The notes under the pieces were generated by a model. It was not told the DNA's origin. It was given only the letters and a program-made list of their open reading frames with translations, and made no database searches. From Escherichia coli (lineage in GTDB: Bacteria > Pseudomonadota > Gammaproteobacteria > Enterobacterales > Enterobacteriaceae), in the NCBI RefSeq assembly GCF_003334255.1, contig NZ_QOWU01000053.1: DNA of 39,954 nucleotides, one strand, 5' to 3'. This document shows positions 34,482 to 39,405 of the stretch, in pieces (the stretch's first letter is position 1; every line of letters begins with the position of its first letter). A program made the position numbers and the translations under genes.

Positions 34482-35549
34482 ATGGATAAGAGTAAGCGCC
34501 ATCTGGCGTGGTGGGTTGTCGGGTTACTGGCGGTGGCGGCTATCGTGGCGTGGTGGCTGTTGCGCCCGGCAGGTGTGCCGGAAGGCTTTGCTGTCAGTAA
34601 TGGGCGCATTGAAGCGACGGAAGTGGATATTGCCAGCAAAATTGCCGGGCGTATCGACACCATTCTGGTGAAAGAAGGCCAGTTTGTTCGCGAAGGTGAA
34701 GTGCTGGCGAAGATGGATACTCGCGTGTTGCAGGAACAGCGACTGGAAGCCATCGCGCAAATCAAAGAGGCACAAAGCGCCGTTGCTGCCGCGCAGGCTT
34801 TGCTGGAGCAACGACAAAGCGAAACTCGTGCCGCACAGTCGCTGGTTAATCAACGCCAGGCAGAACTGGACTCCGTAGCAAAACGTCATACGCGTTCCCG
34901 TTCACTGGCCCAACGAGGGGCTATTTCTGCGCAACAGCTGGATGACGATCGCGCCGCCGCTGAGAGCGCCCGAGCTGCGCTGGAATCGGCGAAAGCTCAG
35001 GTATCGGCTTCTAAAGCGGCTATAGAAGCGGCACGCACCAATATCATTCAGGCGCAAACCCGCGTCGAAGCGGCACAAGCCACTGAACGGCGCATTGCCG
35101 CAGATATCGATGACAGCGAACTGAAAGCCCCGCGTGACGGACGCGTGCAGTATCGGGTTGCCGAGCCAGGCGAAGTGCTGGCGGCAGGCGGTCGGGTGCT
35201 GAATATGGTCGATCTCAGCGACGTCTATATGACTTTCTTCCTGCCAACCGAACAGGCGGGCACGCTGAAACTGGGCGGTGAAGCCCGGCTGATCCTCGAT
35301 GCCGCGCCAGATCTGCGTATTCCTGCAACCATCAGTTTTGTCGCCAGTGTCGCCCAGTTCACGCCAAAAACCGTCGAAACCAGCGATGAACGGCTGAAAC
35401 TGATGTTCCGCGTCAAAGCGCGTATCCCACCGGAATTACTCCAGCAGCATCTGGAATATGTCAAAACCGGTTTGCCGGGCGTAGCGTGGGTGCGGGTGAA
35501 TGAAGAACTTCCGTGGCCTGACGACCTCGTGGTGAGGTTGCCGCAATGA
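34482..35549 (+). CDS. yhiI: HlyD-family membrane fusion protein YhiI
   Basis: 355-aa ORF with N-terminal TM helix and coiled-coil-rich middle; stop overlaps the rbbA start (ATGA). Confidence 0.92.
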
Positions 35550-38281
35550 CGCATCTGGAACTGGTTCCCGTCCCGCCTGTCGCGCAACTGGCGGGCGTGA
35601 GCCAGCATTATGGAAAAACCGTTGCGCTGAACAATATCACTCTCGATATTCCGGCCCGCTGTATGGTCGGGCTGATTGGCCCGGACGGCGTCGGGAAGTC
35701 GAGCTTGTTGTCGTTGATTTCCGGTGCCCGCGTCATTGAACAGGGCAATGTGATGGTGCTGGGCGGCGATATGCGCGACCCGAAGCATCGCCGCGACGTC
35801 TGCCCGCGCATCGCCTGGATGCCGCAGGGGCTGGGCAAAAACCTCTACCACACCTTGTCGGTGTATGAAAACGTCGATTTTTTCGCTCGCCTGTTCGGTC
35901 ACGACAAAGCGGAGCGGGAAGTGCGAATCAATGAGCTGCTGACCAGCACCGGGTTAGCACCGTTTCGCGATCGTCCGGCAGGGAAACTCTCCGGCGGGAT
36001 GAAGCAAAAACTTGGGCTGTGCTGCGCGTTAATCCACGACCCGGAACTGTTGATCCTTGATGAGCCAACAACGGGGGTTGACCCGCTCTCCCGCTCCCAG
36101 TTCTGGGATCTGATCGACAGTATTCGCCAGCGGCAGAGCAATATGAGCGTGCTGGTCGCCACCGCCTATATGGAAGAGGCCGAACGCTTCGACTGGCTGG
36201 TAGCGATGAATGCCGGAGAAGTGCTGGCAACTGGCAGCGCCGAAGAGCTACGGCAGCAAACGCAAAGCGCTACGCTGGAAGAAGCATTTATAAATCTGTT
36301 ACCGCAAGCGCAACGCCAGGCGCATCAGGCGGTAGTGATCCCACCGTATCAACCTGAAAACGCAGAGATTGCCATCGAAGCGCGCGATCTGACCATGCGT
36401 TTTGGTTCCTTCGTTGCCGTTGATCACGTTAATTTCCGCATTCCACGCGGGGAGATTTTTGGTTTTCTTGGTTCGAACGGCTGCGGTAAATCCACCACCA
36501 TGAAAATGCTCACCGGACTGCTGCCCGCCAGCGAAGGTGAGGCGTGGCTGTTCGGGCAACCGGTTGATCCAAAAGATATCGATACCCGCCGTCGGGTGGG
36601 CTATATGTCGCAGGCGTTTTCGCTCTATAACGAACTCACCGTGCGGCAAAACCTTGAGTTACATGCCCGTTTGTTTCACATCCCGGAAGCGGAAATTCCC
36701 GCAAGAGTGGCTGAAATGAGCGAGCGTTTTAAGCTCAACGACGTTGAAGATATTCTGCCGGAGTCATTGCCGCTCGGCATTCGCCAGCGGCTTTCGCTGG
36801 CGGTGGCGGTGATTCATCGCCCGGAGATGTTAATCCTCGATGAGCCTACTTCTGGTGTCGATCCGGTGGCGAGGGATATGTTCTGGCAGTTGATGGTCGA
36901 TCTCTCGCGCCAGGACAAAGTGACTATCTTCATCTCCACCCACTTTATGAACGAAGCGGAACGTTGCGACCGCATCTCACTGATGCACGCCGGAAAAGTG
37001 CTTGCCAGCGGTACACCGCAGGAACTGGTTGAGAAACGCGGAGCCGCCAGTCTGGAAGAGGCATTTATCGCCTATTTGCAGGAAGCGGCAGGGCAGAGCA
37101 ACGAAGCCGAAGCGCCGCCCGTGGTACACGACACCACCCACGCGCCGCGTCAGGGATTTAGCCTGCGCCGTCTGTTTAGCTACAGCCGCCGCGAAGCGCT
37201 GGAACTGCGACGCGATCCAGTACGTTCGACGCTGGCGCTGATGGGAACGGTGATCCTGATGCTGATAATGGGTTACGGCATCAGTATGGATGTGGAAAAC
37301 CTGCGCTTTGCGGTGCTCGACCGCGACCAGACCGTCAGTAGCCAGGCGTGGACACTCAACCTCTCCGGTTCCCGTTACTTTATCGAACAGCCGCCGCTCA
37401 CCAGTTATGACGAGCTTGATCGTCGGATGCGTGCGGGCGATATCACGGTGGCGATTGAGATCCCGCCCAATTTCGGGCGCGATATCGCGCGTGGTACGCC
37501 TGTGGAACTCGGCGTCTGGATCGACGGAGCGATGCCGAGCCGTGCTGAAACGGTAAAAGGTTACGTGCAGGCCATGCACCAGAGCTGGTTACAGGATGTG
37601 GCGAGCCGACAATCGACACCCGCCAGCCAAAGCGGGCTGATGAATATTGAGACGCGCTATCGCTATAACCCGGACGTAAAAAGCCTGCCAGCGATTGTTC
37701 CGGCGGTGATCCCGCTTCTGCTGATGATGATCCCGTCAATGCTAAGCGCCCTTAGCGTGGTGCGGGAAAAAGAGCTTGGGTCGATTATCAACCTTTACGT
37801 GACCCCCACCACGCGTAGTGAATTTTTGCTTGGTAAACAGTTGCCATACATCGCGCTGGGGATGCTGAACTTTTTCCTGCTCTGCGGCCTGTCGGTGTTT
37901 GTGTTTGGCGTACCGCATAAAGGCAGTTTCCTGACGCTCACCCTGGCGGCGCTGCTGTATATCATCATTGCCACCGGAATGGGGCTGCTGATCTCCACCT
38001 TTATGAAAAGCCAGATTGCCGCCATTTTCGGAACGGCGATTATCACGTTGATCCCGGCGACACAGTTTTCCGGGATGATCGATCCGGTAGCTTCGCTGGA
38101 AGGGCCTGGACGTTGGATCGGCGAGGTTTACCCGACCAGTCATTTTCTGACTATCGCCCGCGGGACGTTCTCGAAAGCGCTGGATCTGACTGATTTGTGG
38201 CAACTTTTTATCCCGTTGCTGATAGCCATCCCGCTGGTGATGGGCTTAAGTATCCTGCTGCTGAAAAAACAGGAGGGATGA
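35546..38281 (+). CDS. rbbA: Ribosome-associated ATPase RbbA (tandem ABC ATPase fused to ABC-2 permease)
   Basis: 911-aa ORF with two Walker A motifs ([18 protein letters not shown]) and a hydrophobic C-terminal domain. Confidence 0.95.
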
Positions 38282-39405
38282 TGCGCCATTTACGCAATAT
38301 TTTTAATCTGGGTATCAAAGAGTTGCGCAGTCTGCTCGGTGATAAAGCGATGCTGACGCTGATTGTCTTCTCGTTTACGGTGTCGGTGTATTCGTCAGCG
38401 ACCGTTACGCCAGGATCGTTGAACCTCGCGCCGATCGCCATTGCCGATATGGATCAATCGCAGTTATCGAACCGGATCGTTAACAGCTTCTATCGTCCGT
38501 GGTTTTTGCCACCGGAGATGATCACCGCCGATGAGATGGATGCCGGACTGGACGCCGGACGCTATACCTTCGCGATAAATATTCCGCCTAATTTTCAGCG
38601 TGATGTCCTCGCCGGACGCCAGCCGGATATTCAGGTGAACGTCGATGCCACGCGCATGAGCCAGGCATTTACCGGCAATGGGTATATCCAGAATATTATC
38701 AACGGTGAAGTGAACAGCTTTGTCGCGCGCTACCGTGATAACAGCGAACCGTTGGTATCGCTGGAAACCCGGATGCGCTTTAACCCGAACCTCGATCCCG
38801 CGTGGTTTGGCGGGGTGATGGCGATCATCAACAACATTACCATGCTGGCGATTGTATTGACCGGATCGGCGCTGATCCGCGAGCGTGAACACGGCACGGT
38901 GGAACACTTACTGGTGATGCCGATAACGCCGTTTGAGATCATGATGGCGAAGATCTGGTCGATGGGGCTGGTGGTGCTGGTGGTATCGGGATTATCGCTG
39001 GTGCTGATGGTGAAAGGTGTACTGGGCGTACCGATTGAAGGCTCGATCCCGCTGTTTATGCTGGGCGTGGCGCTCAGTCTGTTTGCCACCACGTCAATCG
39101 GCATTTTTATGGGGACGATAGCGCGTTCAATGCCGCAACTGGGGCTGCTGGTGATTCTGGTGCTGCTGCCGCTGCAAATGCTTTCCGGTGGTTCCACGCC
39201 GCGCGAAAGTATGCCGCAGATGGTGCAGGACATTATGCTGACCATGCCGACGACACACTTTGTTAGCCTCGCGCAGGCCATCCTCTACCGGGGTGCCGGA
39301 TTCGAAATCGTCTGGCCGCAGTTTCTGACGCTGATGGCAATTGGCGGCGCATTTTTCACCATTGCGCTGCTGCGATTCAGGAAGACGATTGGGACAATGG
39401 CGTAA
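38281..39405 (+). CDS. yhhJ: ABC-2 family permease YhhJ
   Basis: Start [17 protein letters not shown]; the ATG overlaps the rbbA stop. An ATG at 38278 is an alternative start. Confidence 0.88.
   Translation: MRHLRNIFNLGIKELRSLLGDKAMLTLIVFSFTVSVYSSATVTPGSLNLAPIAIADMDQSQLSNRIVNSFYRPWFLPPEMITADEMDAGLDAGRYTFAINIPPNFQRDVLAGRQPDIQVNVDATRMSQAFTGNGYIQNIINGEVNSFVARYRDNSEPLVSLETRMRFNPNLDPAWFGGVMAIINNITMLAIVLTGSALIREREHGTVEHLLVMPITPFEIMMAKIWSMGLVVLVVSGLSLVLMVKGVLGVPIEGSIPLFMLGVALSLFATTSIGIFMGTIARSMPQLGLLVILVLLPLQMLSGGSTPRESMPQMVQDIMLTMPTTHFVSLAQAILYRGAGFEIVWPQFLTLMAIGGAFFTIALLRFRKTIGTMA

What the first reader, a model, noticed from the sequence alone, without database searches (positions are those of the whole stretch)
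34482..39405. yhiI-rbbA-yhhJ: three genes joined by ATGA stop/start overlaps
yhiI/rbbA (35546-35549) and rbbA/yhhJ (38278-38281) both overlap by ATGA, indicating translational coupling of a membrane fusion protein, a fused double-ATPase/permease and a second permease. RbbA is described as ribosome-associated, yet this architecture looks like an efflux or export module.
Basis: partly seen in the sequence, partly recalled or inferred. Interest (0 to 1): 0.3.

Follow-up and report, generated by a model that had tools for sequence, protein, structure and literature searches.

The report
E. coli yhiI-rbbA-yhhJ ABC export operon
This is the already annotated E. coli yhiI-rbbA-yhhJ operon: three tightly packed genes that by every sequence, fold and gene-neighbourhood test encode a membrane ABC export pump with its periplasmic adaptor, even though RbbA is named a ribosome-associated ATPase.

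Summary
The window is E. coli, nearly identical to K-12. The yhiI/rbbA ATGA overlap (35546-35549) is real. The string ATGA is also present at 38278-38281, but RefSeq and the K-12 record both start yhhJ at the second ATG (38281). That gives a 1-nt TGATG overlap, not a 4-nt one.

Such overlaps are the commonest spacing in E. coli, so on their own they are ordinary. In 80 homologous loci from other bacteria the gene order adaptor, fused ATPase-ATPase-permease, second permease is almost invariant. The 4-nt overlap at the first junction is kept in 45 of 72 loci. The second junction lies between -4 and +7 nt in 70 of 77, usually with a ribosome-binding motif inside the last rbbA codons.

An outer-membrane channel gene sits next to the module in about a quarter of the loci. 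The three genes are collinear paralogues of YbhG, YbhF+YbhS and YbhR. The permeases have the ABC-2 (type V exporter) fold. RbbA has one consensus and one degenerate ATP site and lacks the features of ABCF translation factors.

Translational coupling and the substrate remain inferred. Interest is low.

The parts
34121..34148 (+). sigma-70 promoter-like site TAGACA-16-TACTAT, with TG before the -10 hexamer
   Evidence: Found by the consensus scan. The same hexamers are listed as the RpoD genomic-SELEX 'constitutive promoter' of yhiI-rbbA-yhhJ in PMC3946193. No other promoter-like site was found between here and 39900.
34306..34419 (+). yhiY, a 37-codon upstream ORF in the leader of the operon
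   Evidence: Annotated in RefSeq and in K-12 (b4790). The start codon was assigned by initiation-complex ribosome profiling (bioRxiv 10.1101/511675). It is listed as a uORF with an RNA 3' end less than 200 nt downstream, and a yhiI fusion rose more than 2-fold in rho R66S (bioRxiv 10.1101/2020.07.18.207399). It is conserved only in Escherichia. The stretch 34300-34390 is C-rich and G-poor, with C/G of 1.4-1.8.
34482..35549 (+). yhiI, the periplasmic adaptor (membrane fusion protein), 355 aa, with one N-terminal membrane anchor (aa 8-26)
   Evidence: TIGR01730 RND_mfp scores 118.5 bits, above its cut-off of 94.9. Pfam finds HlyD_3, HlyD_D23, CusB_dom_1 and Biotin_lipoyl_2. It is 30% identical to YbhG. 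PDB sequence relatives are EmrA and MacA.
35531..35549 (+). junction 1: GTGAGG Shine-Dalgarno-like motif inside the last yhiI codons, then ATGA (35546-35549), a 4-nt stop/start overlap
   Evidence: Sequence. Anti-SD duplex energy is -7.1 kcal/mol. A 4-nt NTGA overlap is kept in 45 of 72 homologous loci: 30 ATGA, 13 GTGA, 2 TTGA.
35546..38281 (+). rbbA, 911 aa: NBD1 (about nt 35579-36265), NBD2 (about 36368-37090), a disordered linker, and an ABC-2 permease domain (about 37163-38278)
   Evidence: NCBIfam NF033858 scores 1596.6 bits, above its cut-off of 1050. Pfam finds 2x ABC_tran plus ABC2_membrane_3. The NBDs are 40-41% identical to YbhF and the TMD is 32% identical to YbhS, in collinear order. 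The AlphaFold2 model has pLDDT 86.9.
38271..38283 (+). junction 2: AGGAGG (38271-38276) inside the last rbbA codons (K-K-Q-E-G), then ATGATG. The rbbA stop TGA is at 38279-38281 and the annotated yhhJ start is ATG 38281.
   Evidence: Sequence and annotation. Anti-SD duplex energy is -10.8 kcal/mol. In 77 homologous loci the spacing is -4 to +7 nt in 70, and an SD core lies in the last 15 nt of rbbA in 62.
38281..39405 (+). yhhJ, the second ABC-2 permease, 374 aa: TM1, a periplasmic domain of about 140 aa, then TM2-6
   Evidence: Pfam ABC2_membrane_3 matches with E 1.2e-34. It is 24% identical to YbhR and 28% identical to the RbbA TMD. The AlphaFold2 model has pLDDT 84.2. The best PDB fold matches are ABCH-9C, NosY, ABCA3/1/4/7, ABCG25, KpsM and TarG.
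39410..39478 (+). terminator-like element: a long hairpin (39410-39455) starting 5 nt after the yhhJ stop, followed by a U-rich stretch
   Evidence: RNA fold of 39400-39500 gives -32.2 kcal/mol, z = -3.3 against shuffles. The next gene (yhhI) is convergent.

Best explanation
yhiY-yhiI-rbbA-yhhJ is one transcription unit that makes an envelope ABC export pump of unknown substrate.

RbbA supplies both ATPase domains and one permease domain, and YhhJ supplies the second permease domain. One RbbA plus one YhhJ therefore gives the canonical two NBDs plus two TMDs of a type V (ABC-2) exporter. Each permease carries a periplasmic domain of about 140 aa.

Only one of the two ATP sites is catalytic: NBD2 Walker A/B and His466 together with the NBD1 LSGGM signature. 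The other site is degenerate, because the NBD1 switch His is replaced by Tyr and the NBD2 signature reads LPLG.

YhiI is anchored in the inner membrane by one helix. [quoted passage not shown]

The stop/start overlaps, with ribosome-binding motifs embedded in the last codons of the upstream genes, let ribosomes that finish yhiI or rbbA restart on the next gene. This ties the amounts of the subunits together, above all RbbA:YhhJ at 1:1.

Shown here: gene positions, domain content, paralogy, fold, motif asymmetry and conserved synteny. Inferred: cotranscription, coupling, complex stoichiometry, the outer-membrane partner and the direction of transport.
For: Identity: the region is 100% identical to many E. 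coli genomes and at least 80% of it is present in 5,414 of 5,426 complete genomes.

Domains.

Paralogy: collinear with cecR-ybhGFSR. YhiI~YbhG 30%, RbbA NBDs~YbhF 40-41%, RbbA TMD~YbhS 32%, YhhJ~YbhR 24%. That operon is also tightly packed, with overlaps of 1, 8 and 8 nt. YbhFSR has published tetracycline-efflux data (PMC7190983).

Synteny in 80 loci from alpha-, beta-, gamma- and deltaproteobacteria, Myxococcota and Lentisphaerae: 78 are fused NBD-NBD-TMD, 72 have the adaptor directly upstream and 77 have the YhhJ homologue directly downstream.

Outer-membrane channel: a NodT-family gene (TIGR01845, 411 bits against a cut-off of 210) is on the same strand, adjacent upstream in 15 loci and downstream in 3-4. 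The Z. mobilis PAP-RbbA-permease-TolC operon is described as an efflux pump.

Fold: YhhJ and RbbA match type V exporters best.

Motif asymmetry is conserved in 77 sequences: NBD1 H-loop Tyr in 72, NBD2 LPLG in at least 70, His466 in 77, LSGGM in 77.

Membrane localisation: full-length RbbA fusions are membrane-localised (PMC6788730).

Operon structure: one promoter-like site upstream that matches a published RpoD site, no internal site, and a hairpin after yhhJ.

Coupling: junction spacing is conserved. In published reporter tests, 4 of 5 E. coli -4 pairs were coupled, and coupling was lost once the gap reached about 20 nt.
Against: There is no transport, substrate, complex or TolC-dependence data for this system in anything I could read. 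There is no solved structure of any of the three proteins.

No outer-membrane gene is linked in E. coli. Coupling has not been measured for these junctions. The strong SD before yhhJ (-10.8 kcal/mol) could equally support independent initiation.

Older biochemistry and a 2025 study report that a truncated, soluble RbbA (NBDs only) affects in vitro translation and binds the ribosomal E site (PMC12096078).

A Rho-dependent 3' end in the leader means that expression may be low or conditional.
Confidence: 0.8

Rival explanations
1. RbbA is a real translation factor. Its tandem ATPase domains bind the ribosomal E site in vivo and promote deacyl-tRNA release, and the membrane domain and its neighbours merely anchor or regulate it. 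This could be moonlighting, or a released soluble fragment.
For: A truncated RbbA lacking the membrane domain changed yields in a reconstituted translation system by roughly 0.3- to 2-fold and behaved as a competitor of ABCF proteins (PMC12096078). Earlier work summarised there and in PMC3083400 reports E-site footprints. The tandem-NBD part of the model also aligns with EttA structures, as any tandem NBD protein does.
Against: The in vivo paper linking RbbA to translation and YhjD is marked as retracted in the library. RbbA lacks the ABCF hallmarks. It has a fused six-helix permease. It has only one consensus signature motif against two LSGGE in EttA. The spacing between its NBDs is shorter, with no long helical hairpin in the model. 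It is 25% identical to EttA against 40-41% to the transporter ATPase YbhF. Full-length fusions are membrane-localised. The adaptor, second permease and often an outer-membrane channel are conserved around it in distant bacteria, which a translation factor would not need. The effects were seen only with an artificial fragment at micromolar concentration.
Confidence: 0.08
2. The overlaps are only genome compaction. The three genes are cotranscribed but each is translated from its own ribosome-binding site, so the overlap does not set subunit ratios.
For: Both downstream genes have their own SD-like motifs, and the one before yhhJ is strong at -10.8 kcal/mol. One of five E. coli -4 pairs tested in PMC6728339 (bioBF) initiated independently. 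In most orthologues junction 2 is a small gap rather than an overlap.
Against: The -4 overlap at junction 1 is retained in 63% of loci across bacterial classes, well above the general share of pairs in the whole -8 to +6 nt range (24%). Only 23 of 72 loci have an SD-like core before the rbbA start, so many depend on something other than SD-led initiation. Overlaps are enriched in genes for heteromeric complexes.
Confidence: 0.15
3. The module is an exporter, but not a drug pump. It moves a lipid, glycolipid or other envelope component from the inner membrane outward. It uses the periplasmic domains of the permeases, as ABCA/ABCH lipid exporters and the DevBCA glycolipid exporter do.
For: The best fold match of both RbbA and YhhJ is the insect ceramide exporter ABCH-9C, followed by the ABCA lipid exporters. 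YhiI also matches the DevB-family adaptor model, though below its cut-off. The operon is a core feature of E. coli, and a core operon fits a housekeeping role better than drug resistance does.
Against: Fold similarity does not reveal the substrate. The closest paralogue YbhFSR has reported drug-efflux phenotypes. NodT-type channels are typical of efflux pumps. No phenotype data were available to me.
Confidence: 0.25

Closest known systems
E. coli CecR-regulated YbhG-YbhF-YbhS-YbhR (ABC-2 type efflux system)
   Same: The gene order and domain order are the same: adaptor, tandem-NBD ATPase, permease, permease. Identity is 24-41% for every component. The asymmetric ATP sites are the same: LSGGM in NBD1 and LPLG in NBD2. 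The gene junctions are tight or overlapping.
   Different: In rbbA the ATPase and the first permease are fused into one 911-aa protein. No TetR-type regulator is linked (1 of 80 loci). Instead E. coli has a small upstream ORF, yhiY. No substrate is known.
MacAB-TolC, the model tripartite ABC efflux pump
   Same: The overall logic is the same: an inner-membrane ABC transporter, a HlyD-family periplasmic adaptor and an outer-membrane channel. YhiI has weak sequence similarity to MacA.
   Different: MacB is a type VII (FtsX-like) transporter with four helices. YhhJ and RbbA have six helices and the ABC-2 fold, and no MacB structure appears among the listed fold matches.
ABCH, ABCA and ABCG type V exporters (e.g. 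Tribolium ABCH-9C, human ABCA1/3/4/7)
   Same: The NBD comes before the TMD, the permease fold is the same, and there is an extracytoplasmic domain after TM1. These are the best PDB fold and sequence matches.
   Different: They are eukaryotic, have no periplasmic adaptor or outer membrane, share only about 20% identity, and have a different subunit arrangement.
ABCF translation factors (EttA, Uup, YbiT, YheS)
   Same: Two NBDs in one polypeptide. E-site binding and in vitro effects on translation are reported for truncated RbbA.
   Different: ABCFs are soluble, have two consensus signatures and a long inter-NBD linker. RbbA has a fused permease and one degenerate site, and is only 25% identical to EttA.

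Membership tests
NCBIfam NF033858 (RbbA equivalog) | Full-length score above the curated cut-off of 1050 bits | tested here: met
   1596.6 bits, covering residues 12-910 of the protein and positions 1-908 of the 909-position model.
ABC-2 / type V ABC exporter | Permease domains match the ABC2_membrane Pfam families | tested here: met
   RbbA 569-903 matches PF12698 with E 2e-39. YhhJ 25-364 matches PF12698 with E 1.2e-34, and PF01061 with E 6e-26.
ABC-2 / type V ABC exporter | Six-helix permease fold shared with ABCA/ABCG/Wzm/TarG/NosY-type exporters, with the NBD N-terminal to the TMD | tested here: met
   The AlphaFold2 models have pLDDT 84 and 87. Foldseek against PDB gives ABCH-9C (E 9e-12 and 3.6e-30), NosY, ABCA, ABCG25, KpsM and TarG. 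Hydropathy shows TM1, a loop of about 140 aa, then TM2-6.
ABC-2 / type V ABC exporter | A complete transporter has two NBDs and two TMDs | tested here: met
   RbbA has NBD-NBD-TMD and YhhJ has a TMD. YhhJ is adjacent in 77 of 80 loci. Physical assembly has not been shown.
Tripartite (outer-membrane channel, adaptor, ABC) efflux or export system | A periplasmic adaptor protein encoded with the transporter | tested here: met
   YhiI scores 118.5 bits on TIGR01730, above the cut-off of 94.9. It has HlyD and barrel-sandwich domains and an N-terminal anchor. It is adjacent in 72 of 80 loci.
Tripartite (outer-membrane channel, adaptor, ABC) efflux or export system | An outer-membrane channel partner (TolC/NodT family) | tested here: inconclusive
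   None is linked in E. coli. A NodT-family gene is adjacent on the same strand in 18-19 of 80 homologous loci and in Z. mobilis. TolC dependence in E. coli cannot be tested here.
Tripartite (outer-membrane channel, adaptor, ABC) efflux or export system | Demonstrated ATP-dependent export of a substrate | not testable with these tools
   No transport data were found in the papers searched.
ABCF translation ATPases | Soluble protein with no transmembrane domain | tested here: not met
   The C-terminal 370 aa form a six-helix permease. Fusions are membrane-localised.
ABCF translation ATPases | Two consensus ATP sites and a long inter-NBD linker (P-site tRNA interaction motif) | tested here: not met
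   EttA has LSGGE twice and 173 aa from Walker B1 to Walker A2. RbbA has one LSGGM plus LPLG, and 141 aa. The model shows only two short helices at 244-259. Identity to EttA is 25%.
ABCF translation ATPases | Binds the ribosomal E site | not testable with these tools
   Reported only for a truncated fragment in vitro. The in vivo study is marked retracted.
MacB/FtsX type VII ABC transporters | Four-helix FtsX-type permease with a MacB periplasmic core domain | tested here: not met
   Six helices, ABC-2 Pfam families only, and no MacB among the sequence matches or the listed fold matches.
Gene pairs coupled by termination-reinitiation | Stop/start overlap of 4 or 1 nt, or a gap of only a few nt | tested here: met
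   Junction 1 is -4. Junction 2 is -1 as annotated, or -4 with the first ATG. The spacing is conserved in orthologues.
Gene pairs coupled by termination-reinitiation | Downstream translation depends on ribosomes reaching the upstream stop codon | not testable with these tools
   This needs reporter constructs with premature stop codons, as in PMC6728339 and PMC10666635.

The most novel reading that the evidence does not exclude
Full-length, membrane-embedded RbbA really does dock translating ribosomes through its tandem ATPase domains. Export by the YhiI-RbbA-YhhJ pump would then be coupled to translation status. The translated leader ORF yhiY and Rho-dependent termination upstream of yhiI would add a second layer of translation sensing. 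This would reconcile the ribosome biochemistry with the transporter architecture.
Probability: 0.06. Interest if true: 0.7.

Novelty: already known. Interest (0 to 1): 0.2.

Why it matters
RbbA is still named, and still used experimentally, as a ribosome-associated elongation ATPase, although its gene context says it is a transporter. The comparative evidence assembled here points to an envelope export pump. That evidence is the near-invariant order of adaptor, fused ATPase/permease and second permease; frequent linkage to an outer-membrane channel; one degenerate ATP site; and the ABC-2 fold. The practical value is a better annotation and a clear list of experiments. It does not reveal a new kind of system, and the overlaps themselves are the most ordinary gene spacing in E. 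coli.

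Tried and rejected
1. The word-indexed protein search with RbbA returned only near-identical E. coli proteins. Its top hits of 1272-1286 aa looked like natural RbbA-YhhJ fusions that might prove interaction. Their junction peptides show frameshifted or deleted ends of rbbA, and most stand for a single sequence and contig, so I treat them as sequencing errors or pseudogenes, not as evidence.

2. I tried to settle the yhhJ start by comparing the N-terminal length of orthologues. Offsets of 11, 12 and 13 codons before the conserved Lys are all common, so this was inconclusive.

3. The Rfam search of 33900-39954 at a permissive threshold found no match.

4. Folding the yhiY-yhiI spacer showed no structure beyond shuffled controls, z = +0.76. 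I therefore do not claim an RNA switch or a sequestered yhiI start.

5. The consensus scan found no internal promoters between 34149 and 39900. It did find several terminator-like hairpins inside the genes, but no more than shuffles give (8 against a mean of 7.1), so I ignored them.

6. I looked for a linked TetR-type regulator like CecR and found one in only 1 of 80 loci.

7. I considered MacB-type (type VII) membership, as a review implies for YbhFSR. I rejected it on helix count, Pfam families and fold matches.

8. There is no solved structure for any of the three proteins or for YbhFSR.

Full report
**What the window is.** The region is E. coli. Window 34200-39600 is 100% identical to many complete genomes, and at least 80% of it is present in 5,414 of 5,426 complete E. 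coli genomes. Window 29083-39954 differs from K-12 MG1655 at six positions. RefSeq annotates yhiY (window 34306-34419), yhiI (34482-35549), rbbA (35546-38281) and yhhJ (38281-39405), all on the + strand. They are followed by the convergent gene yhhI.

**The observation.** The ORFs and the first overlap are exactly as the finding states. ATGA at 35546-35549 is the rbbA start overlapping the yhiI stop. At the second junction the sequence is CAGGAGGGATGATGCGC. ATGA is at 38278-38281 and is in frame with yhhJ. However, both PGAP and the K-12 record start yhhJ at the next ATG, 38281, which gives a 1-nt overlap with the rbbA TGA.

The AGGAGG at 38271-38276 lies 1 nt from the first ATG and 4 nt from the second. 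From general knowledge of Shine-Dalgarno spacing, this favours the second ATG. The anti-SD duplex is strong at -10.8 kcal/mol. Orthologue N-termini of both lengths are common, so comparison does not settle the start.

**Is it more than chance?** Within E. coli it is not. The -4 and -1 spacings are the two commonest, and 24% of co-directional pairs lie between -8 and +6 nt (PMC10666635). The paralogous ybh operon is packed in the same way.

What is informative is conservation. I aligned RbbA with ten diverse full-length homologues and used the alignment to scan one genome per species. This fetched 80 loci from alpha-, beta-, gamma- and deltaproteobacteria, Myxococcota and Lentisphaerae. The results are:
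- 78 of 80 encode the fused NBD-NBD-permease.
- 72 have a YhiI homologue directly upstream.
- 77 have a YhhJ homologue directly downstream.
- Junction 1 is a 4-nt NTGA overlap in 45 of 72 loci (30 ATGA, 13 GTGA, 2 TTGA).
- Junction 2 lies between -4 and +7 nt in 70 of 77 loci, most often at +1 to +3.
- The conserved RbbA C-terminus (K/R-K-Q-E) encodes an AGGAG-like motif in 62 of 77 loci.

The conserved feature is thus very tight apposition with the ribosome-binding motif written into the upstream gene. The ATGA string itself is not the conserved feature.

**What the proteins are.** YhiI is a periplasmic adaptor (membrane fusion protein). It passes the TIGR01730 cut-off, has HlyD and barrel-sandwich domains, and has a single N-terminal membrane helix.

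RbbA passes the NCBIfam RbbA equivalog. It contains two ABC ATPase domains followed by an ABC2_membrane_3 permease. YhhJ is a second ABC2_membrane_3 permease.

The three are collinear paralogues of YbhG, YbhF+YbhS and YbhR, at 30%, 40-41% and 32%, and 24% identity respectively. So rbbA is in effect a ybhF-ybhS fusion.

The AlphaFold2 models are confident, with pLDDT 84 for YhhJ and 87 for RbbA. Their best PDB matches are type V exporters: Tribolium ABCH-9C, NosY, ABCA1/3/4/7, ABCG25, KpsM and TarG. Each permease has a domain of about 140 aa between TM1 and TM2. No structure of these proteins has been solved.

**Mechanistic details from the sequence.** The two ATP sites are unequal. NBD1 has Walker A, Walker B-Glu and a canonical LSGGM signature, but Tyr replaces the switch His. 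NBD2 has Walker A, Walker B-Glu and His466, but its signature is LPLG.

ATP sites are composite. The site formed by the NBD2 catalytic motifs and the NBD1 signature is therefore consensus, and the other site is degenerate. This pattern is conserved in 77 homologues (Tyr in 72, LPLG in at least 70, His466 in 77, LSGGM in 77) and in YbhF. The inference is that one site drives transport, as in other asymmetric ABC exporters.

**Evidence for an envelope-spanning pump.** A NodT-family outer-membrane channel gene (TIGR01845, 411 bits against a cut-off of 210) lies on the same strand, directly upstream of the adaptor in 15 loci and downstream of the second permease in 3-4 loci. The equivalent four-gene set in Zymomonas mobilis has been described as an efflux pump (PMC11989028). 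E. coli has no linked channel. TolC is the obvious candidate, but this is untested.

**Transcription.** The only promoter-like site upstream, TAGACA-16-TACTAT at 34121-34148, is the one listed as an RpoD-bound constitutive promoter of 'yhiI-rbbA-yhhJ' (PMC3946193). No site is predicted inside the operon. A long hairpin followed by U-rich sequence starts 5 nt after the yhhJ stop.

The leader contains the translated 37-codon ORF yhiY. A published yhiI fusion rose more than 2-fold in a rho mutant, and yhiY-yhiI is listed among uORFs with a nearby RNA 3' end. The C-rich, G-poor stretch lies inside yhiY. The unit is therefore probably yhiY-yhiI-rbbA-yhhJ, with Rho-dependent attenuation in the leader. 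That last point is an inference from others' data.

**The ribosome question.** RbbA lacks the defining features of ABCF translation ATPases:
- It has a fused permease.
- It has one degenerate signature, where EttA has two LSGGE.
- Its inter-NBD spacing is shorter, with no long helical hairpin in the model.
- It is 25% identical to EttA, against 40-41% to YbhF.

Full-length RbbA fusions are membrane-localised (PMC6788730). The in vivo paper that tied RbbA to translation and YhjD is flagged as retracted in the library. What remains is in vitro work with a truncated soluble fragment, including modest effects in a 2025 study. I therefore rate a genuine ribosomal role as unlikely but not excluded.

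**Verdict.** It is, however, already reflected in the annotation ('ribosome-associated ATPase/putative transporter'), in operon listings and in the literature on homologues. Coupling, stoichiometry, the outer-membrane partner and the substrate remain inferences. This is an ordinary, known operon with an outdated name, and the interest is low.

Noticed in passing
window 32494-34116 (yhiJ) and 30625-32232 (yhiL): The window's yhiJ carries a nonsense codon at codon 70: T at 32701 where K-12 has C. The neighbouring yhiL, a pseudogene in K-12, is intact here because of one extra A at 31821. The strain is therefore close to K-12 MG1655 but not identical to it.
   Followed up: partly
window 30625-39405: There is a sharp change in base composition. 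yhiL and yhiJ are 35-37% G+C, whereas yhiI-rbbA-yhhJ is 55-58% (third codon positions 58-69%). RbbA is also 65-76% identical to homologues in alpha- and deltaproteobacteria. This is unusually high for such distant taxa and suggests horizontal spread of the module.
   Followed up: partly
window 34306-34419 (yhiY) and leader 34149-34481: The small ORF yhiY is found only in Escherichia: 86% identical in E. albertii and degraded in Citrobacter. It contains the only C-rich, G-poor stretch of the leader. Published data show Rho-dependent reduction of a yhiI fusion. It may be a regulatory upstream ORF.
   Followed up: partly
proteins P0001-P0010 (database hits to window 35546-39405): Ten database proteins of 1272-1286 aa join RbbA to YhhJ. 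Their junction peptides show frameshifted or deleted ends of rbbA, some next to the A6 run at 38264-38269, and most stand for a single sequence and contig. They look like sequencing errors or pseudogenes rather than natural fusions.
   Followed up: yes
L009:10116-15383: In a Desulfuromonadales genome, a second, unfused system (adaptor, tandem ATPase, two permeases, like ybhGFSR) lies directly downstream of the RbbA-type module on the same strand. Several genomes carry two RbbA-type loci: Pseudochelatococcus (L006 and L011), Pseudomonas marginalis (L055 and L061) and Afipia (L060 and L079).
   Followed up: no
window 39478-39500: Just after the terminator-like hairpin there is a fragment, GGCCGGATAAGGCGTTTAT, that resembles half of an E. 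coli REP element. This is a resemblance from memory and was not tested.
   Followed up: no
L041 (MAG labelled Alistipes senegalensis): One RbbA-type locus with about 61-68% identity to the E. coli protein comes from a metagenome bin assigned to Bacteroidota. All other loci are from Proteobacteria, Myxococcota or Lentisphaerae. This could be a binning error or a transfer.
   Followed up: no
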